Shown here one piece after another: positions 1 through 11,677 of a stretch of DNA of 11,677 nucleotides. The notes under the pieces are model-generated. The model searched no databases. It was given only the letters and a program-made list of their open reading frames with translations, and had not been told where the DNA came from. Position numbers and translations under genes: made by a program. This DNA is from a virus (lineage: Duplodnaviria > Heunggongvirae > Uroviricota > Caudoviricetes): positions 1 through 11,677 of IMG/VR virus record IMGVR_UViG_2711768074_000029. One strand, given 5' to 3'. Every line of letters begins with the position of its first letter. Position 1 is the first letter of the stretch.

Positions 1-60
1 GGTATCCGTTCTGCTGAAGTGTCATGGCGTTGATTTTACGGTGACTCTTCGACAGTGAAA

Positions 61-83
61 AGAAAAAAGGCCGCAGAGCGGCC
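61..83 (-). terminator. Intrinsic terminator ending the leftward int-distal operon
   Basis: Stem ggccgc (69-74), loop aga, gcggcc (78-83); the plus-strand A-run 63-68 becomes a U-run directly after the hairpin on the minus transcript. Lies about 125 nt downstream of the stop at 209. Confidence 0.5.
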
Positions 84-208
84 ATAATTACATTCAAAAA
101 TCAATAAGTTGCATAATTATCAATAACTTACAGACACGCAAAAACACAGCCAACCACAGCAAGTAACAGGGATGTGGTCACTTTGTGGATCATATCGCCA
201 CCATAAAT

Positions 209-646
209 TTACTTAATAACAGTAACAACAGCCACAAGCACAGCCATCGCAGACAGGACAATACCTGTGAGTAGCCAAGTCTGATTTGCAAATGATTTCT
301 GAAGTTCAGTACGATGCTCAGCCATCTCAACTTTCAGAGACTGGCGCAAATCAGCCATCTCAGACTTCAGGGATTGGCGCGATTCTGCCATCTCAAGCCG
401 CAACCCTTCACGAATCTCCAGTACATCAAATTTGGTGGCAAAGGATTCACTTCTCGTGGTGAGAGTAATCAGGTTGTTTTTGATTTCAGTTACATCACTT
501 TCTAGGCAACTAACTCGCCGTTCAAGGTCGTCATTCATGCCATCGCCTCCATCATTACCACTTCCTGTCACTTGGTTGTTGGATACATTATTGGCATTCT
601 CTTTCTTTTTTCTGAACGGTAAGATTGCAGTACTGTCCGGCATCAT
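209..646 (-). CDS. Hypothetical coiled-coil protein with C-terminal transmembrane helix (tail-anchored); 145 aa, or 109 aa if it starts at the internal MNDDLERR
   Basis: ATG overlaps the upstream stop (ATGA coupling). The N-terminus is low-complexity (N/G/S-rich), the middle carries 11-residue repeats EMAxxRQSLKx, and the C-terminus WLLTGIVLSAMAVLVAVVTVIK is hydrophobic. No family recognised. Confidence 0.6.
   Translation of the reverse strand: MMPDSTAILPFRKKKENANNVSNNQVTGSGNDGGDGMNDDLERRVSCLESDVTEIKNNLITLTTRSESFATKFDVLEIREGLRLEMAESRQSLKSEMADLRQSLKVEMAEHRTELQKSFANQTWLLTGIVLSAMAVLVAVVTVIK
319..417. repeat. Three imperfect tandem 33-bp units inside the coiled-coil gene, in frame (encode 11-aa hendecad repeats)
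   Basis: Units start at 319 (cagccatctcaac...), 352 (cagccatctcaga...) and 385 (ctgccatctcaag...). Confidence 0.6.
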
Positions 647-1005
647 TTGTCATCACCCTGCTTACCTACCCAGCTCATAAAAGCTCGGGCCGAGTAACGA
701 TGAACAAACCCACATCTGTTGCAGGTAAGTCTGAATTCATAGTTATGGATATTTTTCCGATCATCTCCCTCATATCCCGGATACCCAGTAAATGGACCGA
801 TGTAATCAAGCATAATCAAAGCTCTTGAATTGCCCCCCTCAGCAGTTTTCACTTCAGCCCCATCCGCAATAGCCCCCGTCAAATACATGTGCATATCCGT
901 ATCGCCACACGACAAACATTTTTCATTCGCAGACGACTCATCGAGAAAACGAGCAAAATTATCAAGCGTTGCCATTCCTTTAAGTTCATCTATATCAAAC
1001 TTCAC
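643..1005 (-). CDS. Hypothetical zinc-ribbon protein (Cys4: C30, C33, C95, C98), 120 aa
   Basis: GTG start lies 2 nt after the int stop, with a strong SD (AGGAGG, plus 1015-1020 reverse complement) inside the int 3' end. CxxC...CxxC pairs KCLSCG and TCNRCG. No family recognised. Confidence 0.6.
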   Translation of the reverse strand: MKFDIDELKGMATLDNFARFLDESSANEKCLSCGDTDMHMYLTGAIADGAEVKTAEGGNSRALIMLDYIGPFTGYPGYEGDDRKNIHNYEFRLTCNRCGFVHRYSARAFMSWVGKQGDDK

Positions 1006-1007
1006 TT

Positions 1008-1985
1008 TTAAGCACCTCCTAGCGGATTAAATCTCACCGCATCCTGCAAGTAATCCGGCGCAAGATGGGCATAAATCATTGTTGTCTGAATCTTTGCGTG
1101 CCCCAGAATTTTCTGGAGCGTCAGAATATTGCCGCCGTTCATCATGAAATGACTGGCGAAGGTGTGGCGCAGCGCATGAACAGCCTGGCCGTCAGGAACA
1201 TCAGGTGCGACCGTTTTGATGACATCGCGAACCAATGGATAATCCAGCGTCGGAAACACCAGTTTCCCGCCCCGTTTTTTGATCTTTTCAAACAAATCTT
1301 CGGAGATTGGGACGGTACGGTTTTTACTGTTCTTTGTTTTTGAAAAAGTGATTCGACAATGCAGAACGCGGCGTTGCTCCAGTGCCGCTACCTCGCCCCA
1401 TCGCGCCCCGGTCGATAAAAGGATTTCAACAGCCAGCCGCTCATCGGGATTTTCAGCCAGTGCATCCAGCAACTGAACACATTCAGACTTACTCAGATAT
1501 CCCATTTCGCGTTCGTTAACCTTCATTCCTTTCAGACCTTGAACGGGGTTATCGTTAAGGAAATGGCCGGAAGAGATGAGTGCACTAAACATCGCGCTTA
1601 ACGCCCCAATCTCTCGATTTATGGTGCTGGGCTGTATCCCCTGCTCTATCCTGGACACACGTAGCTCGGTGAGCATCGTTGTATTAAGTTTATGCACGCA
1701 CGGGTCATCCATTGCCTCACTCAAGCGCAGCAATTTAAGGCGCGTGTTATGCCCTGACTTCATTAGCTGGCCGTGGTATTTCCACCACAAGTCAATAAGC
1801 ACTGACAGCGGACGGCGATCAATGGAGTTTCCTTTCCACTCATTGTTATGCTGTTGTGCCAGCACCCACCGCTCATATAAAACTGCATCCGATTTCGTTT
1901 TAAATTTTTTGCGAATGCGTTTGCCTTTACGCCCCTCCGGGCGCATGTCAAGAAGATACCCTCCCGGAATTGATTTTATGCTCAT
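1008..1985 (-). CDS. int: Tyrosine integrase, P2 Int family
   Basis: Translation from MSIKSIPGGYLLDMRPEGRKGKRIRKKF matches the P2 Int N-terminus pattern. The catalytic region (GARWGE...HALRHTFASHFMMNGG...LGHAKIQTTMIYAHLAPDYLQDA) has the R..HxxR..Y signature. I take ATG 1985 as start rather than the ORF-track start at 2135, which would overlap C by 100 bp. Confidence 0.9.
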   Translation of the reverse strand: MSIKSIPGGYLLDMRPEGRKGKRIRKKFKTKSDAVLYERWVLAQQHNNEWKGNSIDRRPLSVLIDLWWKYHGQLMKSGHNTRLKLLRLSEAMDDPCVHKLNTTMLTELRVSRIEQGIQPSTINREIGALSAMFSALISSGHFLNDNPVQGLKGMKVNEREMGYLSKSECVQLLDALAENPDERLAVEILLSTGARWGEVAALEQRRVLHCRITFSKTKNSKNRTVPISEDLFEKIKKRGGKLVFPTLDYPLVRDVIKTVAPDVPDGQAVHALRHTFASHFMMNGGNILTLQKILGHAKIQTTMIYAHLAPDYLQDAVRFNPLGGA

Positions 1986-2034: not shown

Positions 2035-2346
2035 TTAGCCGGGCTGTGTGCCAGTCTTGCGGGGTTTTTGAGAAGGCGATGTGCTTTTTGGCCCATCAGG
2101 GGAGAGAGACGGACTGATCTGTCCTGCAGCCTCATTAGTTTTTCCTGTCATAAGCCATATTGTGTACTTTTCGAAATCTTTAGAATTAATTACGCGATCG
2201 ACAACACTTAAACCGACCTCTCTTTTACCACTCTCATAGTTCTTTATGGTTCCGAGGTTTATCCCGGTAACATCAGCAAACTCAGCTTGAGTTAACCCTT
2301 CACTCTTTCGTATCTCTTTCAGTTTTTTTTCATATCCACTTGACAT
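2035..2346 (-). CDS. C: Immunity repressor, P2 C-like (HTH)
   Basis: 103 aa. LTQAEFADVTGINLGTIKNYESG is an HTH, and the C-terminal YTIWLMTGK...AGQISPSL resembles P2 C (YTLWFMTNQ...SGQIAPAL, from memory). GGAG SD 6 nt before the ATG. Sits directly upstream of int on the same strand, as in P2. Confidence 0.8.
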   Translation of the reverse strand: MSSGYEKKLKEIRKSEGLTQAEFADVTGINLGTIKNYESGKREVGLSVVDRVINSKDFEKYTIWLMTGKTNEAAGQISPSLSPDGPKSTSPSQKPRKTGTQPG

Positions 2347-5361: not shown

Positions 5362-5483
5362 GAAACCAGAACATGCACACACAAAAAAACCGCTTGCCAT
5401 GCCGCAATCAGTCAGGTTACATTTCCGCTGCACCTCACAAAACGGGTGTCGGGTTTCGCAGCCTGCTGACTACACAAGCGCAC

Positions 5484-5504
5484 AACCGCGCCAGCGGTTT
5501 TTTT
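5484..5504 (+). terminator. Intrinsic terminator-like hairpin within the early region
   Basis: Stem aaccgc (5484-5489), loop gcca, gcggtt (5494-5499), followed by a 7-T run to 5504. Confidence 0.45.
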
Positions 5505-5683
5505 GTGCGTACTGTATTGCCACGTTTTTTTCGCGTCAGAATTATGGCGGGGCGTACGGGGCCGACTTCGGTCGGGCCGGGTTCTTGTGTAGCCGGTACT
5601 GCGAACCTCGTACGTCTCGCCACCCACAGTTTCGCAGCTCTGGATGGTGAGTTTTCACAACTTACTACACAAGGGGCCACACC

Positions 5684-6304: not shown

Positions 6305-9112
6305 ATGACGGCAGAGTACATCAGGGACTGGCAACAACCGCGCCACGCAGTGGGGCGTGAAGGAACGGGGATCCCCGTTCCTGAATCCGCGCTTTCCTCC
6401 TGGCTGGATGCCTACCGGGCAGAGAACGAGCGCCGCCAGGAAATGGCTGATGCGGCGTTCTCCGCCACGCCGCTGGGCAACCTGATTAATAAAAGCCTGG
6501 ACGCACAGGAAAAACAGGACAAAACCATCACACTGGCAGGAGACGCCAGAAAACAGGCACGCGGCGCGGTGGATGAAGCCATGGCCTCGCTGCGCCTGCT
6601 GCCGTCCTATCTGCGCGATCCGCTTATTCGCCACCTCTCCTTCCTGCGCAAAAAACAGGAAGCCGATCGCCGGAAAGGCAAAAAGAGCTGGCAGGCTGAA
6701 CGCTACGCGCGCGGAACCCTGCGCAAAATATTCGAACGTCTGGACCGCACCGACCACCGCTGGCTGACACCGGGTTATCGCTCCCTTGCCGGACGCGAAC
6801 GCCTGGATGATTTGCTTTACCTGCCGCAGCTCAACCAGCACCAGATACAGACGCTGGCCACCATGACGGCGGCGATGTTCAGCAGCACCTTCGAAAAACT
6901 CTGCGATGGCTTTGGCGCGACCGATGGCGAACTGACCATGGATGTAACGCTGAAGGCGTATCAGATGCTGGCCCGCATGGCGTTACACCTGCACGCCATG
7001 CCGCCACATTACGAAGCTCTGAACAAGAGCGATCCGGATACGGAACTGTTACCGGGCGCAATCCTTCGCCTGACCTGTGCGGAATGGTGGAAACGCAAAC
7101 TGTGGCTGTTACGTTGCGAGTGGCGGGAAGAACAACTCCGCGCCGCCTGTCTGGTTTCCAGAAAAACATCACCCTATCTGAGCCAGGACGCGTTAAGCGA
7201 GTTTCGCGCACAGCGCGAGAAAACACGCGATTTCCTGAAAAGTTTCATGCTGGAAAACGAAGACGGGTTCACGATTGATCTCGAGACAGTGTATTACGCG
7301 GGAGTAAGTAACCCGGTTCACCGTAAGGCAGAAATGATGGCCACCATGAAGGGACTGGAACTTCTGGCCGAAGCCCGTGGCGACAAAGCGGTGTTTCTGA
7401 CCATCACCTGCCCGTCAAAATACCACGCCACAACAGAGAACGGTCATCCGAATCCCAAATGGAACGGGGCCACCATGCGCGACTCCAGCGATTACCTGGT
7501 TAACACGTTTTTTGCGGCGGTCCGCAAGAAACTGAACCGCGACGGCCTGCGCTGGTATGGCATCCGCACAGTGGAGCCTCACCATGACGGCACCGTGCAC
7601 TGGCATATGATGGTCTTTGCTCATCCGGAAGAAATCGACACCATTGTGTCCCACACCCGCGATATTGCCATTCAGGAAGATCGTCACGAGCTGGGTGATG
7701 ATATTACCCCACGCTTTAAGGCGGAGTACGTCGACGGCTCAAAAGGCACGCCAACCAGCTACATCGCCACCTACATCGGAAAGAACCTGGACAGCCGCGC
7801 CGTGGATGGTATCGACCCGAAAACGGGCAAGCCACGCGTTGACCACGAAACCGGAAAATCAATGGCCGAGAGCGTGGAGCGCGCCATCGGCTGGGCGCGC
7901 CTTCACCGGGTCCGCCAGTTCCAGTTCTTTGGCATCCCCTCCCGTCAGGTGTGGCGTGAACTGCGCCGCCTTGCCAGCCAGATGGCACGCAACCCGGAAG
8001 GCCCGCAACGGCTGAAGGATGACGCAATGGATGCAGTGCTCGCTGCCGCTGATGCCGGGTGTTTTGCCTCCTACATTGAAAAACAGGGCGGCGTACTTGT
8101 TCCACGCAAAGACTACCTGATTCGCACTGCCTACGACCTCGCAGATGAGCTGAACGATTACGGCGAACAGAGCGTACAGATTTACGGGATCTGGTCACCA
8201 CTCATCGGGGAGTCTTCCCGTGTGTGCACACATCCGGATAACTGGAAGCTGGTAAGACGTAAACCGGAAGCGGAAGACAGCGCCCGCGAAAATGGTTTTG
8301 ACCTTCAGGGCGGCCCTGCCGCCCCTTGGACTCGTGGCAATAACTGTCCCCGTGTACAGGAAACGGACAACAACGGGACAGAACAGCCGGAAGAACGGCC
8401 AGCACCGTGGCCGCAGCTCCCTGACGGCGTTGAAGTGAACGAATGGATGCGCTCACTGAAACGGCACGAACGCCGGACGCTGATGCGTTCGCTGCGTGAC
8501 AAGCAGGCAAAAAACAGCAGTGATGAAATGCAGAACTGGACACAGAGCCGCAAACAGCCACGGCCTTTGCCTGATAACCACGAATTACTCGCTAAAGAAT
8601 GGCGGGAATCTGCCGAATCTCTCGGCCTGTATATCGGTGAACAGCAGATGCAGCACCTGTTACGGGGCGGCAGCCTGTACGTTGACGGCAGCATCATTGC
8701 ACCACAGGGATTTGAAATTGTACGCAAACCGGATACCCGCCCGGACAGCCGAATCACGCAGCTCTGGCAGCACCTGAGCCGTAATCACGGCGTAAGCAGC
8801 ACGGAGATCCGCCATAACCCGGTCGCCAGCTATCTGGCACAGCTGGGGGCATCAGACCCCGAAGCCGCCGCACGTCTGGCATCCACACTTCAGCAGGACC
8901 AGAACACCATGAAAACCCCCGTTACCGTGCTTTCTGACATGCTGCGCGCCATCCGTGACGCAGAGCACGCACAGAGAATCAGTGAAACAACTGAACGCGC
9001 CCGCCGCAAAGCAGACCTGCTGCGGGGTGGCCTGACCAGTAGAAACAAAAAACAGACAGAAACGGGATTCACAAATCCCGTAAATGAGCAAAAAACGCGC
9101 CGCGATATATGA
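6305..9112 (+). CDS. A: Rolling-circle replication initiator (replication endonuclease), P2 gpA family
   Basis: 935 aa. HUH motif RTVEPHHDGTVHWHMMVF (about 7570-7620) and catalytic tyrosine pair SYIATYIGKN (about 7760-7790) match P2 gpA (RVVEPHHDGTPHWHMMVF; GYIAKYISKN, from memory). The N-terminal PRHAVGRE also matches. Confidence 0.92.
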   Translation: MTAEYIRDWQQPRHAVGREGTGIPVPESALSSWLDAYRAENERRQEMADAAFSATPLGNLINKSLDAQEKQDKTITLAGDARKQARGAVDEAMASLRLLPSYLRDPLIRHLSFLRKKQEADRRKGKKSWQAERYARGTLRKIFERLDRTDHRWLTPGYRSLAGRERLDDLLYLPQLNQHQIQTLATMTAAMFSSTFEKLCDGFGATDGELTMDVTLKAYQMLARMALHLHAMPPHYEALNKSDPDTELLPGAILRLTCAEWWKRKLWLLRCEWREEQLRAACLVSRKTSPYLSQDALSEFRAQREKTRDFLKSFMLENEDGFTIDLETVYYAGVSNPVHRKAEMMATMKGLELLAEARGDKAVFLTITCPSKYHATTENGHPNPKWNGATMRDSSDYLVNTFFAAVRKKLNRDGLRWYGIRTVEPHHDGTVHWHMMVFAHPEEIDTIVSHTRDIAIQEDRHELGDDITPRFKAEYVDGSKGTPTSYIATYIGKNLDSRAVDGIDPKTGKPRVDHETGKSMAESVERAIGWARLHRVRQFQFFGIPSRQVWRELRRLASQMARNPEGPQRLKDDAMDAVLAAADAGCFASYIEKQGGVLVPRKDYLIRTAYDLADELNDYGEQSVQIYGIWSPLIGESSRVCTHPDNWKLVRRKPEAEDSARENGFDLQGGPAAPWTRGNNCPRVQETDNNGTEQPEERPAPWPQLPDGVEVNEWMRSLKRHERRTLMRSLRDKQAKNSSDEMQNWTQSRKQPRPLPDNHELLAKEWRESAESLGLYIGEQQMQHLLRGGSLYVDGSIIAPQGFEIVRKPDTRPDSRITQLWQHLSRNHGVSSTEIRHNPVASYLAQLGASDPEAAARLASTLQQDQNTMKTPVTVLSDMLRAIRDAEHAQRISETTERARRKADLLRGGLTSRNKKQTETGFTNPVNEQKTRRDI

Positions 9113-9188: not shown

Positions 9189-10148
9189 ATGAAAATTTGT
9201 ATCGACGACGGCTCCACCAACATCAAGCTGGCATGGACTGAGAACGGCGAACGCCGCAACGCCATCAGCCCGAACAGCTTCAAGTCGGAATGGTCTGCGC
9301 CGTTCGGTGGCACGCAGCCCGCGAACTACATGCTTGATGGCGTGCGCTATGGTTTTGATCCGGTCAGCGATCGCTTTGTCCAGACGACCGACACGCAATA
9401 CCAGTACAGCGATGTGAATGTAATCGCCATTCACCACGCGCTGGTCAAATCAGGCATCACACCACAGGAAGTGGATGTGGTTGTTACCCTGCCACTGAGC
9501 GAGTATTTCGACACAAACGCACAGCCGGACATGGCCAACATCAACCGCAAAAAAGCGAACGTTATGCGCCCGGTGGAGTACCAGAACGGCGAGGCATTCA
9601 CTATCCGTAACGTGCGGGTTATGCCTGAATCCATTCCGGCTGGCTTTAAAGCACTGGCTGACATGAGTCCGTTTGAATCCCTGCTGATTGTGGATTTGGG
9701 CGGAACCACGCTGGATGTGGCAAAGGTTCAGGGGCAACTGGCAGGTATCAGCCAGGTGTTTTGCGATCCACACGTAGGCGTTTCTCTGATGGCCGATGCC
9801 GTACTGTCGGTGATGGCCACTAACGGTATGCGCACCAGTCACCACATCGCCAATACCATTATCGAACGTCGCCATAATGAAGCCTGGCTGCGCCAGCACA
9901 TCCACAATGACGCGCATTACGCCAGCCTGATGGCGGTTATTCGTGAAAAGGAAGAAACACTGAAACAACGCGTGATCCGCGCGCTGGCGGTTTTTTCGGG
10001 TTACGGGCGGGTGATGGTTGTCGGTGGCGGGGCGGAGATTGTGGCACCCGCTATCCGCGAAGCCTGCGGAGTTAATGCGACTTTCATCGCGGACGGGGTG
10101 CCACAGTTTGCTCTGGTTAATGGGCTGTACGCAATGGACAAGGAGTAA
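9189..10148 (+). CDS. parM: Actin-like segregation ATPase, ParM/StbA family
   Basis: 319 aa. N-terminus MKICIDDGSTNIKLAW matches R1 ParM (MLVFIDDGSTNIKLQW). Further matches: YSDVNVIAIHHAL, NVRVMPESIPAGF, LLIVDLGGTTLD, VMVVGGGAE and the C-terminal LVNGLY. AAGGA SD 8 nt upstream. Confidence 0.9.
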   Translation: MKICIDDGSTNIKLAWTENGERRNAISPNSFKSEWSAPFGGTQPANYMLDGVRYGFDPVSDRFVQTTDTQYQYSDVNVIAIHHALVKSGITPQEVDVVVTLPLSEYFDTNAQPDMANINRKKANVMRPVEYQNGEAFTIRNVRVMPESIPAGFKALADMSPFESLLIVDLGGTTLDVAKVQGQLAGISQVFCDPHVGVSLMADAVLSVMATNGMRTSHHIANTIIERRHNEAWLRQHIHNDAHYASLMAVIREKEETLKQRVIRALAVFSGYGRVMVVGGGAEIVAPAIREACGVNATFIADGVPQFALVNGLYAMDKE

Positions 10149-10152
10149 ACCA

Positions 10153-10464
10153 ATGACGACACCAACCAGACGGATAAGTTTCTATCTGAAGCCCGCCGCC
10201 GTCAAGAACGAAGGAGAAGCATGCGCCTGGCTGGACAGCCTTACACCAGAAGCCCGCAAAAGCGGCCAACGCGTGGCTTTTCTGGCCGGGCTGGCACTTC
10301 TGAAGACGAATCCGGCAGAGGCTTACCGACTGGCCGCATGGGCTGATGATGAGATGTTACCTGTGACACAAATCAGCTCAAAAAAGTTTGAAGCACAGTC
10401 TGCACCAGTGGCTAAGATAACCAGCCAGATGGCTGGGAATATCCGGGCGTTATTTCCTGAGTAA
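10153..10464 (+). CDS. parR: ParR-like centromere-binding adaptor / repressor (ribbon-helix-helix)
   Basis: 103 aa from ATG 10153, with an AGGAG SD inside the parM 3' end. RRISFYLKP...LDSLTPEARKSGQRVAFLAGLALL aligns with R1 ParR (RRTIAFKLNP...LDSIPQGERSRLNRAALTAGLALY). The ORF-track start at 10018 overlaps parM and is rejected. Confidence 0.8.
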   Translation: MTTPTRRISFYLKPAAVKNEGEACAWLDSLTPEARKSGQRVAFLAGLALLKTNPAEAYRLAAWADDEMLPVTQISSKKFEAQSAPVAKITSQMAGNIRALFPE

Positions 10465-10592
10465 AAGCATCTGCGCGAAAAATGCTCACGTTTATAGAGA
10501 CAGTATCATTCCATTTGGCACACTTACTTCAATAATCGATCTGTTAAACAAATAGATTGTCTATTATCTATCGATTAAAACGATCAATTATC

Positions 10593-10620
10593 TTGACAGT
10601 AATGTGCCTTTTTGTAAGAT
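10593..10620 (+). promoter_or_regulatory. Near-consensus sigma70-type promoter with a GATC overlapping the -10
   Basis: TTGACA (10593-10598), 16-nt spacer, TAAGAT (10615-10620). GATC sites at 10535, 10582 and 10618. AT-rich repeats (ATCGAT, ATTATCT, ATAGAT/ATCTAT) lie just upstream. Confidence 0.4.
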
Positions 10621-10670
10621 CGTTCGCATTGTGAGCGACAAGATAATTGCGCGGCATTGTCCATGCAAAA

Positions 10671-10698
10671 CGCCCCAATAGCAGCAACTATTGGGGCG
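10671..10698. other. Perfect 11-bp-stem hairpin (cgccccaatag / cagcaa / ctattggggcg)
   Basis: Seen directly. On the minus strand it is followed by UUUUG; on the plus strand there is no U-run. Could be a leader structure of the plus transcript or a weak minus-strand terminator. Confidence 0.4.
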
Positions 10699-10726
10699 TA
10701 AAACTCGGTCGGACTCACTTAACCTG

Positions 10727-10811
10727 ATATGCGTGCCTTCCGAAGTAAATCAAAATGTGCGTCGTATATTTTATTGCTTACACGCACCTCTGTAAAGGCA
10801 CGCATATTTTT
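10727..10811 (+). promoter_or_regulatory. Long-range 13-bp perfect inverted repeat enclosing an inner stem, followed by a T-run, directly upstream of the orf89 RBS (attenuator- or operator-like)
   Basis: atatgcgtgcctt (10727-10739) pairs with aaggcacgcatat (10795-10807), followed by ttttt. Inner inverted repeat gtgcgt / acgcac. The GAGG RBS is at 10817-10820. Confidence 0.4.
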
Positions 10812-10828
10812 CCTATGAGGTAAATAAA

Positions 10829-11098
10829 GTGCGGGCTAAAACAGGTATTTGCAAGAACCCTCATCGTTATAATCCAACATTTCTGTCTCTCCCTGAATAT
10901 CAAGGACAAGAAGGTCGGCACAAATGCGCTGCCTGTGCTTTTGAGCTAGGCATAAAAGATGCGCTTGAAGGACGCGCTATGGCTCAGAATGATTTAGTTT
11001 TAGCTAACATTCCGTTTAGCCAGGCTGGAACTGTAAGGCACAGAGATGCCTATGAAGCATATGTTCGTGGTTGGCGATTAATAAACAGCAACAATTGA
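10829..11098 (+). CDS. Hypothetical 89-aa protein with a Cys/His cluster (C8, H12, H31, C33, C36); orphan transcription unit
   Basis: GTG start 7 nt after GAGG; stop TGA 11096-11098, followed 9 nt later by a strong intrinsic terminator. No family recognised. Confidence 0.6.
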   Translation: MRAKTGICKNPHRYNPTFLSLPEYQGQEGRHKCAACAFELGIKDALEGRAMAQNDLVLANIPFSQAGTVRHRDAYEAYVRGWRLINSNN

Positions 11099-11106
11099 TA
11101 CTTTTG

Positions 11107-11130
11107 AAGCGCCGATAAGGCGCTTTTTTT
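11107..11130 (+). terminator. Rho-independent terminator
   Basis: Stem aagcgcc (11107-11113), loop gataa, ggcgctt (11119-11125), then a 7-T run. Confidence 0.75.
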
Positions 11131-11131
11131 G

Positions 11132-11280
11132 TTTGCACGATAGTGCACAAGTTTGCACAATTTTTTTGAACGACTTTTTGTACTTCCGGCCCGCGTGGTG
11201 GCTGGATCCGTCAAGGATCCGTACGTGCACAAAAAAACGCGTTTTTTCTGCGCGCAGGTGACGGGGGAACAGCCCGCGTT
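11132..11280. other. Repeat-rich non-coding region: candidate cos / packaging region
   Basis: TTTGCAC at 11132 and 11152; GTGCAC at 11144 and 11225; direct repeat GGATCCGT at 11204 and 11215; palindrome A7-CGCG-T6 at 11231-11247. A G-rich segment ggtgacgggggaacagccc (about 11257-11275) partly resembles the P2 cohesive end GGCGAGGCGGGGAAAGCAC as I recall it (13 of 19). Lies between the replication/cargo genes and a leftward gene, as cos does in a P2 prophage. Confidence 0.3.
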
Positions 11281-11533
11281 TCAGGGGGTAAATAGCATTC
11301 CCTGAACGATGTCGCAGAGATAGAACAGAATGGCTGTATTTCTCACGCTGAGCGTGAAAAAGACGTGAGGGCTTTTGATTTGATGGGGTGAAAGGTAAGG
11401 CCGTCAAAATCGCACTGAGACGGCGAGAACATGCAGTCAACGCGGTGGGATTGCGTAAGAGTCTGACTGTCGATGATGGCAATCAGCAGGAAAGCGTCGT
11501 GAAATTATCTGACTGATACAGGAGCTGGAGAGT

Positions 11534-11558
11534 CGGGGCATAAATTTTTTATGCCCCG
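11534..11558 (-). terminator. Hairpin downstream of the leftward edge gene (possible terminator)
   Basis: 11-bp stem cggggcataaa / tttatgccccg with loop ttt. No clean U-run follows on either strand. Confidence 0.3.
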
Positions 11559-11584
11559 GCGAAGCAGCAGACAAGCGAAGCGCG

Positions 11585-11677
11585 TCAGGATGTGGGCTGG
11601 GTGTCTAACAGTGCGTAAGGGTTAAAGCGGATCACCTCTTCGCCAAGCCAGTCATTGATGTGCTTCATGGCCTCCAT
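11585..11677 (-). CDS. 3' end (last 30 codons) of a leftward gene truncated by the window edge; position matches portal gene Q of P2-like phages, identity unverified
   Basis: Open frame on the minus strand from the window edge to stop TGA (plus tca 11585-11587); C-terminal peptide ...KHINDWLGEEVIRFNPYALLDTQPTS. Assignment to Q rests on synteny only. Confidence 0.35.
   Translation of the reverse strand: MEAMKHINDWLGEEVIRFNPYALLDTQPTS

What the first reader, a model, noticed from the sequence alone, without database searches (positions are those of the whole stretch)
61..1010. Integrase-coupled two-gene cassette: Cys4 zinc-ribbon protein plus hendecad-repeat, membrane-anchored coiled-coil protein
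Seen in sequence: the zinc-ribbon gene starts (GTG 1005) 2 nt after the int stop, with an AGGAGG SD inside the int 3' end. The coiled-coil gene overlaps its stop (ATGA), and an intrinsic terminator follows at 61-83. The three genes therefore look like one leftward transcription unit with int. Established knowledge: in P2 the att site lies just past the int 3' end with no genes in between, so these are cargo. I recognise neither protein. A small zinc-ribbon partner with a tail-anchored coiled-coil membrane protein is the sort of pairing seen in exclusion / abortive-infection or lysogenic-conversion modules. Inference: candidate undescribed two-gene accessory system riding on the integrase.
Basis: partly seen in the sequence, partly recalled or inferred. 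Interest (0 to 1): 0.75.

Follow-up and report, generated by a model that had tools for sequence, protein, structure and literature searches.

The report
Prophage zinc-ribbon plus membrane-anchored coiled-coil pair
A P2-like prophage of E. coli carries, between its integrase and the end of the element, a conserved and mobile two-gene module of untested function (a small zinc-ribbon protein and a tail-anchored coiled-coil membrane protein apparently made in two sizes); it is most likely an accessory function expressed in the lysogen, such as exclusion of other phages.

Summary
Zn-ribbon gene 643-1005(-), GTG start 2 nt after the int stop with an AGGAGG SD. Coiled-coil gene 209-646(-), ATGA overlap. 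Three 11-residue repeats, a C-terminal TM helix, and a terminator at 69-83.

The terminator is the 25-bp att core (59-83), which is the host ihfA terminator present in all 5426 E. coli genomes. Prophage DNA starts at 84, so the cassette is inside the element.

The int-attL slot is variable. Sister prophages carry divergent versions of the same pair, or an unrelated 131-aa gene.

The pair travels together:
- downstream of int at four host sites in five genera;
- upstream of int in Dickeya;
- at the ogr end in Morganella, with promoter- and terminator-like sites of its own;
- in lambdoid phages (SPN3UB gp24/gp25) far from any integrase.

The coiled-coil protein sits on the DUF1640/XhlA fringe (beta-layer FATKxD, hendecads, tail anchor) but lacks a head domain. 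The Zn-ribbon family is small, confined to Enterobacterales, in no Pfam family, and without structural relatives.

New: a conserved internal GGAGG-ATG (P~5e-5) predicts long and short isoforms.

Function is untested. The best guess is lysogen-expressed phage exclusion or abortive infection at the inner membrane (~0.4).

The parts
59..83 (-). 25-bp att core (AAAGAAAAAAGGCCGCAGAGCGGCC). It is also the intrinsic terminator of host ihfA, and it ends the leftward int-cassette transcript.
   Evidence: It is identical in attL (window), the empty attB and the attR of strain 165. Window 1-83 is present in 5426 of 5426 E. coli genomes. In empty sites ihfA stops 18 nt beyond it. The terminator scan hits 83-69(-).
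84..208 (.). Non-coding phage arm of attP/attL, between the core and the cassette.
   Evidence: It is found in 306 of 5426 E. coli genomes, always next to btuC where checked. It is conserved whatever cargo sits in the slot.
209..646 (-). Gene for the tail-anchored alpha/beta coiled-coil membrane protein, long isoform, 145 aa. Its start overlaps the Zn-ribbon stop (ATGA).
   Evidence: ORF. PHROG 9415, E 1.3e-37. The AF2 model has residues 1-34 disordered, helix 36-66, a break at 67-71 and helix 72-144. dN/dS is 0.06-0.21. The N-terminal 36 codons stay open in all 17 loci examined, with dN/dS 0.17-0.46.
536..550 (-). Embedded Shine-Dalgarno GGAGG (550-546), a 7-nt spacer, and the conserved internal ATG of Met37 (538-536). 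This is the predicted start of a 109-aa short isoform (209-538).
   Evidence: GGAGG lies 4-9 nt before this ATG in 9 of 12 independent lineages. Synonymous-codon resampling expects 1.6 +/- 1.2, P~5e-5. Many annotations call the 109-aa form.
425..442 (-). Beta-layer motif F-A-T-K-F-D (residues 69-74).
   Evidence: It matches the DUF1640/Tcar0761 consensus [aliphatic]-A-T-K-[polar]-[DE] given in PMC4786415. The AF2 helix breaks exactly here. The motif is repeated six times as nonads in the Dickeya homologue.
296..394 (-). Three tandem hendecads (residues 85-117).
   Evidence: TRF finds a 33-bp period at 318-396. Copy number is 1-4 among close homologues and up to 5 in divergent ones.
215..277 (-). 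C-terminal transmembrane anchor (W124-I144), followed only by K145.
   Evidence: Seen directly in the sequence. It is helical in the model. The same architecture appears in all homologues.
643..1005 (-). Gene for the Cys4 zinc-ribbon protein, 120 aa. CxxC knuckles at 907-918 and 712-723.
   Evidence: PHROG 4293, E 9.8e-25. The four Cys, G99 and W112 are invariant. AF2 pLDDT is 78.8. It has no Pfam, NCBIfam or PADLOC family and no structural relative.
1015..1020 (-). AGGAGG Shine-Dalgarno for the Zn-ribbon gene, inside the int 3' end.
   Evidence: Read from the sequence. The int/Zn junctions have spacers of no more than 3 nt, or overlap, in most P2-type loci.
1008..1985 (-). P2-type tyrosine integrase, 325 aa from MSIKSIP.
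   Evidence: Pfam Int_N plus Phage_integrase. 99.4% identical to the annotated int of strain 165.
2035..2346 (-). C-type HTH repressor, the first gene of the leftward C-int-Zn-CC unit.
   Evidence: Pfam HTH_3 and PHROG 147. No convincing terminator lies between it and 83.

Best explanation
SHOWN.
- Window 84-1005 is the att-proximal cargo of a P2-like prophage inserted in the ihfA terminator, between btuC and ihfA.
- The cargo is a conserved, mobile two-gene module. The first gene encodes a 120-aa soluble Cys4 zinc-ribbon protein. Its stop overlaps the start of the second gene, which encodes a tail-anchored coiled-coil protein.
- The coiled-coil protein has, in order: a disordered N-terminal 34 residues, a Gly/Asp-rich run, a helix, a beta-layer (FATKFD), hendecads, and a C-terminal TM helix.
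- In the window both genes sit downstream of C and int with no intervening terminator.

INFERRED, in order of decreasing support.
1. The pair is transcribed with C and int from the lysogenic promoter, so it is made in the lysogen.
2. The coiled-coil gene gives two products. One is a long form, translationally coupled to the Zn-ribbon protein. The other is a short form from a conserved internal GGAGG-ATG at Met37.
3. The coiled-coil protein forms a trimeric stalk. It is anchored in the inner membrane and projects into the cytoplasm, as DUF1640-type proteins do.
4. The Zn-ribbon protein docks on the N-terminal extension of the long form. It supplies the 'head' that this family lacks.
5. The complex acts against superinfecting phages, by exclusion or abortive infection. 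The fast-evolving Zn-ribbon protein would be the specificity or sensor part. The conserved membrane stalk would be the effector, possibly perturbing the membrane in the way XhlA does. The short isoform would modulate the long one.
For: Boundary and slot: define the att core. Searches show 306 genomes with the same arm and at least four different slot contents.

Linkage of the two genes across deep divergence and different contexts:
- E. coli, Salmonella, Klebsiella, Serratia, Yersinia and Sodalis, downstream of int at four or more host sites.
- Dickeya, between repressor and int.
- Morganella, at the ogr end, with a TTGACT-17-TATTAT promoter-like site and its own terminator.
- Lambdoid phages SPN3UB, ST101-KPC2phi6.1 and an Enterobacter phage-plasmid, next to an arc/ant region and lipoprotein morons.

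Translational coupling: the Zn and CC genes overlap by 1-11 nt in most loci.

Architecture.

Internal start.

Asymmetric evolution. Against strain 165, int is 99.4% identical, CC 97% and Zn 80% (Zn dN/dS 0.63). Against L004, Zn is 59% identical with dS 1.09, while CC is 92% with dS 0.24. That indicates allele swapping.

Defence-type neighbour: an Abi_C-domain gene lies in the same slot in Yersinia.

Precedents:
- XhlA acts together with a holin in PBSX (PMC5589764).
- XhlA-domain, single-TM genes lie next to cI in Mannheimia lambdoid phages (PMC4553209).
- P22 exclusion genes are prophage-expressed (PMC10461980).
Against: - There is no experimental datum for any family member.
- No enzymatic or known effector domain is present.
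- PADLOC gives no family-wide hit. One of 29 Zn members matches PDC-S64 weakly. The coiled-coil hits to LmuB, ZorA and LeoC are generic coiled-coil matches.
- The Zn/CC physical interaction and the trimeric state were not modelled.
- Lysogenic expression is inferred from operon layout and from what is known of P2, not measured.
- The scan found no promoter of the cassette's own in the window.
- Guilt by association with defence genes is thin. It rests on one Abi_C neighbour.
Confidence: 0.4

Rival explanations
1. Lysogenic conversion aimed at the host rather than at phages. The tail-anchored stalk, with its Zn-ribbon partner, would scaffold or inhibit a host inner-membrane or membrane-proximal machine such as a transporter, the divisome, flagellar export or ribosomes. 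MCUR1 as a scaffold, and E. coli tail-anchored proteins such as YgiM or YqjD/ElaB, are the models.
For: DUF1640/CCDC90-like affinity. The coiled coil plus anchor matches TIGR04211 (SH3_and_anchor) at E 4e-5. In Dickeya the module lies next to a tail-anchored protein with a Flk_N domain. Its position in the lysogenic operon also fits.
Against: The rapid turnover and allele swapping of the Zn-ribbon gene, and the slot variability, are more typical of inter-phage conflict. No host partner is indicated by any result.
Confidence: 0.2
2. A lysis-related accessory. An XhlA-like membrane protein would tune the phage's own holin or lysis timing, and the long and short isoforms would act like a holin/antiholin dual start.
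For: Two of 12 family members hit Pfam XhlA at E~1e-5. PGAP names one partner 'hemolysin XhlA'. XhlA is required together with holin XhlB in PBSX. The gene has a dual start.
Against: The module is never next to lysis genes. It sits in the C-int operon, or in moron clusters near immunity regions. Sister prophages with the same backbone lack it and carry another gene in its place. So it is dispensable for the lytic cycle.
Confidence: 0.12
3. An addiction or toxin-antitoxin-like pair that stabilises the prophage. The membrane protein would be toxic. The Zn-ribbon protein or the short isoform would be the antidote.
For: It is a two-gene, translationally coupled, small and mobile module. It encodes a single-TM protein that could depolarise the membrane. 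The prophage also carries ParM/StbB maintenance genes.
Against: There is no similarity to known TA families. The CC protein is much longer than typical membrane toxins of the Hok type.
Confidence: 0.08
4. An accessory of site-specific recombination that works with the integrase, for example by tethering or regulating Int or att complexes.
For: Tight translational coupling to int in most P2-type loci. A zinc ribbon could bind nucleic acid.
Against: The module is absent from P2 itself (established knowledge). Sister prophages with the same att arm and btuC-ihfA site (int not compared) lack it. It is separated from int in Morganella and in lambdoid phages.
Confidence: 0.05

Closest known systems
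DUF1640 / CCDC90-like family (PF07798; MCUR1, CCDC90B and prokaryotic homologues; trimeric alpha/beta coiled coils of Hartmann et al. 2016, PMC4786415)
   Same: It has the beta-layer motif x-A-T-K-x-D at the start of the stalk, hendecad periodicity and a C-terminal membrane anchor. The best PDB profile hit is 6h9l, a three-chain 'uncharacterized protein' with ATKEDIEALRK repeats, at E 6.5e-6. Six of 12 relatives hit PF07798. PGAP names variants at the same slot 'DUF1640 domain-containing protein'.
   Different: The window protein itself scores far below the Pfam cut-off, 10.9 bits against 33.5. It has no N-terminal globular head domain, only a disordered 34-residue extension and a Gly-rich run. 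It is always paired with a separate Zn-ribbon gene. It is encoded by phages.
XhlA (PF10779), the membrane protein of the B. subtilis PBSX lysis cassette xhlA-xhlB-xlyA
   Same: It is a small phage-encoded protein with an N-terminal coiled coil and a C-terminal TM segment. Two of 12 relatives match the family at about 1e-5, and one partner is annotated 'hemolysin XhlA'.
   Different: It is not adjacent to a holin or endolysin. It is encoded in the lysogenic operon or in moron positions. It has a Zn-ribbon partner and an internal start. The window protein itself does not match the HMM.
Prophage exclusion/abortive-infection pairs made of a soluble sensor and a membrane effector (lambda RexA/RexB), and P22 SieB with its in-frame truncated product Esc (Ranade & Poteete 1993, recalled from memory; the reference is cited in PMC10461980)
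   Same: Works like, by inference only. It is expressed from the prophage, pairs a cytoplasmic component with a membrane component, and appears to make a shorter in-frame isoform from an internal start.
   Different: No sequence similarity was found or tested. RexB and SieB are polytopic membrane proteins, not tail-anchored coiled coils.
Variable anti-phage hotspots of P2-like phages and P4 satellites (Rousset et al. 2022, PMC9122126)
   Same: It is a small locus of roughly 0.4-3 kb, flanked by conserved anchors (int and the att arm), whose content turns over between otherwise near-identical P2-like prophages. In Dickeya the pair lies between the repressor and int, the position of the hotspot described for K139-like Vibrio phages.
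   Different: That paper describes the slot downstream of replication gene A for E. coli P2-like phages, psu-int for P4, and cI-int for K139-like phages. The text passages searched do not mention the int-attL slot. No validated defence system was found in the slot here.
Generic zinc ribbons (TFIIS/Rpb9-type, NrdR N-terminus)
   Same: It has two CxxC knuckles on beta-hairpins. There are weak Foldseek hits to TFIIS-type domains.

Membership tests
DUF1640 / CCDC90-like (PF07798) | Match to the family HMM above the gathering score | tested here: not met
   The window protein gives E 0.43 and 10.9 bits against a cut-off of 33.5. Six of 12 relatives reach E<0.01, best 6.8e-6.
DUF1640 / CCDC90-like (PF07798) | Beta-layer motif [aliphatic]-A-T-K-[polar]-[D/E] at the start of the coiled-coil stalk | tested here: met
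   F69-A-T-K-F-D74 in the window protein. Relatives have FATKSD or FATKAD, and Dickeya has six nonad copies. The AF2 helix breaks at 67-71.
DUF1640 / CCDC90-like (PF07798) | C-terminal transmembrane anchor | tested here: met
   W124-I144 is hydrophobic and helical, with one residue after it.
DUF1640 / CCDC90-like (PF07798) | Globular N-terminal head domain | tested here: not met
   Residues 1-34 have pLDDT below 50 and no secondary structure. They are followed by a Gly/Asp run.
DUF1640 / CCDC90-like (PF07798) | Homotrimeric assembly | not testable with these tools
   Only monomer prediction is available. The closest solved relative, 6h9l, has three chains.
XhlA (PF10779) | Match to the family HMM | tested here: not met
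   No hit for the window protein. Two of 12 relatives hit, best 7.7e-6.
XhlA (PF10779) | Encoded in a lysis cassette next to a holin and an endolysin | tested here: not met
   The neighbours are int, att, ogr, or immunity-region morons in all loci.
Known or candidate anti-phage defence systems (PADLOC-DB 2.0.0) | Match of either protein, or of their relatives, to a defence-system model | tested here: not met
   Nothing for the window proteins. One of 29 Zn members hits PDC-S64 at 4e-4. The CC hits are generic coiled-coil matches.
Variable cargo hotspot of P2-like phages | Conserved flanking anchors with different gene content in closely related elements | tested here: met
   The same btuC/att arm and int are seen with the window-type pair (86 genomes), a Zn166+DUF1640 pair, a Zn132+DUF1640 pair, or a single 131-aa gene.
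Variable cargo hotspot of P2-like phages | Slot contains experimentally validated defence systems | tested here: not met
   None was found in the slot contents scanned. The only lead is an Abi_C-domain gene with a weak AbiJ match in the Yersinia slot. The slot's full content range across genomes was not surveyed.
Cys4 zinc ribbon | Two CxxC knuckles conserved across the family | tested here: met
   C30, C33, C95 and C98 are invariant in 29 sequences. The strands at 38-40, 89-95 and 101-105 flank the knuckles.
Cys4 zinc ribbon | Zinc binding | not testable with these tools
   Needs metal analysis of purified protein.
Dual-start (two-isoform) phage membrane genes such as SieB/Esc or holin/antiholin | Conserved in-frame internal start with its own ribosome-binding site | tested here: met
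   GGAGG lies 4-9 nt upstream of the conserved Met in 9 of 12 lineages, against 1.6 expected, P~5e-5. This is a sequence-level test only. Whether two proteins are made is untested.
Dual-start (two-isoform) phage membrane genes such as SieB/Esc or holin/antiholin | Sequence homology to SieB or to holins | not tested
   No SieB or holin family appeared in the Pfam or PHROG scans. No direct comparison was run.

The most novel reading that the evidence does not exclude
The pair is an undescribed two-gene anti-phage system of temperate enterobacterial phages. A rapidly diversifying zinc-ribbon sensor sits on the cytoplasmic tip of a trimeric, tail-anchored alpha/beta coiled-coil stalk of the DUF1640/XhlA type. 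When it recognises an incoming phage component, the stalk's TM bundle blocks DNA entry or depolarises the membrane. A short isoform, made from an internal ribosome-binding site embedded in Gly codons, sets the threshold, as Esc does for SieB. This would also give the first function for a prokaryotic member of the DUF1640-like proteins.
Probability: 0.3. Interest if true: 0.7.

Novelty: new variant of a known kind. Interest (0 to 1): 0.55.

Why it matters
- It defines a further variable cargo slot in P2-like prophages, between int and att. About 5.6% of complete E. coli genomes carry a prophage at this one site. The slot could be mined as the published P2/P4 hotspots were.
- It links a small Zn-ribbon family that has no Pfam entry to the tail-anchored DUF1640/XhlA-like coiled-coil proteins. 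Those are widespread in phages and organelles, and no bacterial function for them turned up in the literature searched here. A phenotype for this pair would give a handle on that whole class.
- The internal Shine-Dalgarno hidden in a Gly-Gly run explains why annotation pipelines disagree on the gene start (145 aa against 109 aa). It predicts two isoforms, which is directly testable.
- The carriers include STEC and ETEC strains, and clinical Klebsiella and Salmonella. If the module excludes phages, it is relevant to phage therapy and to host-range prediction.

Tried and rejected
- Host-gene hypothesis: rejected. The core-genome match ends at 83, and the cassette is absent from empty sites.
- Spurious ORFs: rejected on conservation, invariant Cys and dN/dS.
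- Ogr/Delta-type Zn finger: no Pfam hit.
- Known defence families: PADLOC on the two proteins and on 29 + 12 relatives gave nothing family-wide.
- tblastn of the window proteins against INPHARED phages: no match. Only the more central family members P0058 and P0059 reach isolated phages.
- The search for related loci with the broad alignments failed for lack of a conserved stretch. The close alignment found nothing in the species-representative genomes.
- Literature searches for accession numbers, 6H9L, 'XhlA + anti-phage' and 'tail-anchored prophage exclusion' gave nothing relevant.
- A complex (multimer) prediction could not be run with the tools available.
- Integrase-accessory role: considered and largely rejected because of the Morganella, lambdoid and sister-prophage contexts.
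Full report
**1. What is in the window**

The 11.7-kb window is the left end of a P2-like prophage.
- On the minus strand lie a C-type HTH repressor (2035-2346), a P2-type integrase (1008-1985) and the two genes of the finding.
- On the plus strand lie a cox-like early operon, a Phage_GPA replication endonuclease (6305-9112) and a ParM/StbB partition pair.
- The closest complete genomes are E. coli chromosomes carrying the same arrangement next to btuC.

**2. Check of the observation**

- The int stop TAA is at 1010-1008. Two nt later comes GTG at 1005-1003. AGGAGG is at 1020-1015, 9 nt upstream and inside int.
- The 120-aa ORF (1005-643) has CLSC and CNRC knuckles.
- Its TGA overlaps the ATG of a 145-aa ORF (646-209).
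- That ORF contains three tandem 11-residue units (residues 85-117). TRF finds the 33-bp period.
- It ends in a 21-residue hydrophobic helix plus one Lys.
- The only strong terminator in 1-2600 is GGCCGC-TCT-GCGGCC followed by TTTTTTCTTT at 83-69 on the minus strand.

**3. Where the prophage ends**

- Window 1-83 is present in all 5426 complete E. coli genomes, and the match stops at 83.
- In an empty site, btuC, these 83 bp and ihfA are contiguous. The ihfA stop lies 18 nt past position 83.
- Aligning attL (window), attB and the attR of strain 165 gives a 25-bp common core, AAAGAAAAAAGGCCGCAGAGCGGCC, at window 59-83.
- The core contains the whole hairpin and T-run, so the 'terminator' is the ihfA terminator. 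It is duplicated by integration. It must also be present in attP, where it again follows the cassette.
- Phage DNA therefore begins at 84, and the cassette is inside the element.

**4. The int-att slot is variable**

- The phage arm 84-208 occurs in 306 of 5426 genomes.
- Eighty-six of those carry the window-type cassette at 90-95% DNA identity.
- Others with the same btuC junction and int carry one of three alternatives:
  - a Zn-ribbon of 166 aa (about 23% identical) plus a 145-aa protein that PGAP names 'DUF1640 domain-containing';
  - a 132-aa plus 134-aa version of the pair;
  - a single unrelated 131-aa gene, for example in the O104:H4 strain HUSEC2011.

**5. The two genes travel together**

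The pair lies downstream of int in P2-like prophages at several host sites:
- btuC-ihfA in E. coli and Salmonella;
- yhbY-rlmE-ftsH;
- dadX in Klebsiella;
- mntR/mntH in Serratia;
- and in Yersinia and Sodalis.

The pair also occurs in three other positions.
- In Dickeya zeae it lies upstream of int, between the repressor and int.
- In Morganella it is at the opposite prophage end, between the pykA terminator (the likely att site) and ogr. A TTGACT-17-TATTAT promoter-like site lies about 50 nt upstream, and a terminator of its own lies downstream. That is the classic layout of a moron.
- In the lambdoid siphophages Salmonella SPN3UB (gp24/gp25) and Klebsiella ST101-KPC2phi6.1, and in an Enterobacter phage-plasmid, it lies far from any integrase. 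There it sits in a moron cluster beside arc/ant-type immunity genes and lipoprotein genes.

In most loci the Zn-ribbon stop and the CC start overlap by 1-11 nt. The second and third refutation conditions (housekeeping homology, no co-occurrence) are therefore not met either.

**6. The zinc-ribbon protein**

- It belongs to PHROG 4293, of unknown function. It has no Pfam, NCBIfam or PADLOC family.
- An exhaustive HMMER search of 1.84 billion representative proteins found only 35 relatives at E<=1e-3.
- The members that carry a source name are all from Enterobacterales.
- Across 29 members the four Cys, G99 and W112 are invariant, and F17 is nearly so.
- The AF2 model (pLDDT 78.8) has two N-terminal helices, a zinc-ribbon sheet interrupted by a disordered loop (residues 45-60), and a C-terminal helix.

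**7. The coiled-coil protein**

- It belongs to PHROG 9415.
- The model shows residues 1-34 disordered, helix 36-66, a break at 67-71, and one long helix 72-144 that runs into the TM segment.
- The break coincides with F-A-T-K-F-D. This fits the beta-layer consensus [aliphatic]-A-T-K-[polar]-[D/E] that Hartmann et al. described for DUF1640 and Tcar0761-type trimeric alpha/beta coiled coils (PMC4786415).
- The Dickeya homologue carries six nonad copies of (F)ATKADLQ(N/S).
- A family profile hits PDB 6h9l (three chains, ATKEDIEALRK repeats) at E 6.5e-6 and the Giovannonibacteria beta-layer construct 7o92 at 7e-4.
- Six of 12 relatives hit PF07798 and two hit XhlA. The window protein itself is below threshold for both.
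- Hendecad copy number varies from 1 to 5 among homologues.
- The family lacks the globular head of DUF1640 proteins.

**8. A second, internal start**

- In all 17 loci examined, the CC reading frame stays open from the Zn-ribbon stop to a conserved Met. A Gly/Asp-rich run precedes that Met.
- The 36 upstream codons evolve with dN/dS 0.17-0.46, so the long form is coding.
- At the nucleotide level the Gly codons spell GGAGG 4-9 nt before the conserved ATG in 9 of 12 independent lineages.
- Resampling synonymous codons with E. coli usage gives 1.6 +/- 1.2 lineages, P about 5e-5.
- In the window this is GGAGG at 550-546 and ATG at 538-536.
- This points to an embedded ribosome-binding site and a 109-aa short isoform. 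It also explains why many annotations call the 109-aa product.
- The lineages are related, so the P value is approximate.

**9. Evolutionary asymmetry**

- Between the window and strain 165, Int is 99.4% identical, the CC protein 97% (dN/dS 0.06) and the Zn-ribbon 80% (dN/dS 0.63).
- Against locus L004, Int is 97.8%, CC 92% (dS 0.24) and Zn 59% (dS 1.09). That indicates allele replacement.
- The changes concentrate in the loop between the knuckles.

**10. How it most likely works**

Shown:
- position inside the prophage in a variable slot;
- gene linkage and overlap;
- the architecture of both proteins;
- the embedded internal start signal.

Inferred:
- expression in lysogens from the C-int transcript, because no terminator lies before the att core, and from what is known of P2 Pc transcription (my own knowledge);
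- a trimeric cytoplasmic stalk anchored by its tail;
- the Zn-ribbon docking on the N-terminal extension of the long isoform as a detachable head;
- an anti-phage role, with the fast-evolving Zn-ribbon giving specificity and the conserved stalk/TM acting at the membrane.

Support for the anti-phage reading is contextual:
- slot turnover;
- mobility between phage types;
- moron organisation;
- an Abi_C-domain neighbour in Yersinia;
- XhlA's cooperation with a holin;
- XhlA-like genes beside cI in Mannheimia phages;
- the SieB/Esc precedent (from memory; the reference is cited).

I put it at about 0.4.

The rivals are listed separately with their evidence:
- manipulation of a host membrane machine, 0.2;
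- a lysis accessory, 0.12;
- an addiction module, 0.08;
- an integrase accessory, 0.05.

**11. Novelty**

- No paper in the searchable library mentions these proteins.
- The passages of Rousset et al. 2022 that I searched describe other P2/P4 hotspots, and the cI-int slot of K139-like phages, but not this one.
- The kind of thing, a prophage moron in a variable slot with an XhlA/DUF1640-like tail-anchored protein, is known.
- The obligate Zn-ribbon partner, the headless stalk and the dual start are new features.
- I rate it a new variant of a known kind, with interest 0.55.

Noticed in passing
window 59-83: The prophage integrates exactly in the ihfA transcription terminator. The 25-bp core holds the complete hairpin and T-run. 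After integration, therefore, ihfA (at attR) and the phage int-cassette transcript (at attL) each keep a full terminator.
   Followed up: yes
window 5430-5504 and 5540-5627 (+): Rfam hits above gathering score to the isrK Hfq-binding sRNA (61.9 bits) and the C4 antisense RNA (83.2 bits). They lie in tandem in the early rightward region, upstream of the replication gene. Overlapping ORFs listed there are probably not genes.
   Followed up: no
window 9189-10464 (+): A ParM (StbA_N + ParM_N) gene and a Plasmid_stab_B partition gene lie directly after replication gene A. That is the published P2 hotspot, and Rousset et al. note partition systems there in about a quarter of P2-like phages. The prophage may be able to persist as a plasmid.
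   Followed up: partly
window 6305-9112 (+): The gpA-type replication endonuclease is 935 aa. The Phage_GPA domain covers only residues 179-498, which leaves a long C-terminal extension of about 430 residues of unknown function.
   Followed up: no
L006 5190-5585 (-); also L043, L044: The alternative occupant of the same int-attL slot is a 131-aa protein (WP_000416308/WP_000416304) with no Pfam-like, NCBIfam or PADLOC match. It is present in O104:H4 HUSEC2011 and in other STEC-associated strains.
   Followed up: partly
L032 5431-5983 versus L031 5431-6063 (Dickeya zeae): In one Dickeya genome the coiled-coil gene is split into 89-aa and 99-aa ORFs inside the nonad (ATKADLQ) repeat array, and some repeats are lost. 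This could be repeat slippage causing inactivation, possibly an on/off switch.
   Followed up: no
L031 4285-4896 (+): Immediately upstream of the pair in the Dickeya prophage is another tail-anchored protein, 203 aa, with a Flk_N domain and a C-terminal TM segment. It lies between the repressor and int and has no PADLOC match.
   Followed up: partly
L052 5356-7221 (+) (Yersinia): The int-att slot here holds two more genes after the pair: a 288-aa protein with no match, and a 300-aa protein with a Pfam Abi_C domain and a weak AbiJ match (E 1.6e-4).
   Followed up: partly
L050 3701-3730 and 3920-3948 (Morganella): This P2-like prophage also seems to use a host terminator (pykA) as its attachment site. 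Here the pair lies on the ogr side of att, so in the circular phage it would be collinear with int across attP.
   Followed up: partly
L008 (IMGVR_UViG_2648501110_000023): This 5.7-kb IMG/VR contig encodes Int, Zn-ribbon and CC proteins 100% identical to those of the window. No complete RefSeq E. coli genome exceeds 94.5% DNA identity over the cassette.
   Followed up: no
window 10829-11098 (+): An 89-aa ORF with a CAAC motif and no Pfam match lies downstream of the partition genes in the hotspot region. The rest of 10500-11677 was not analysed.
   Followed up: no
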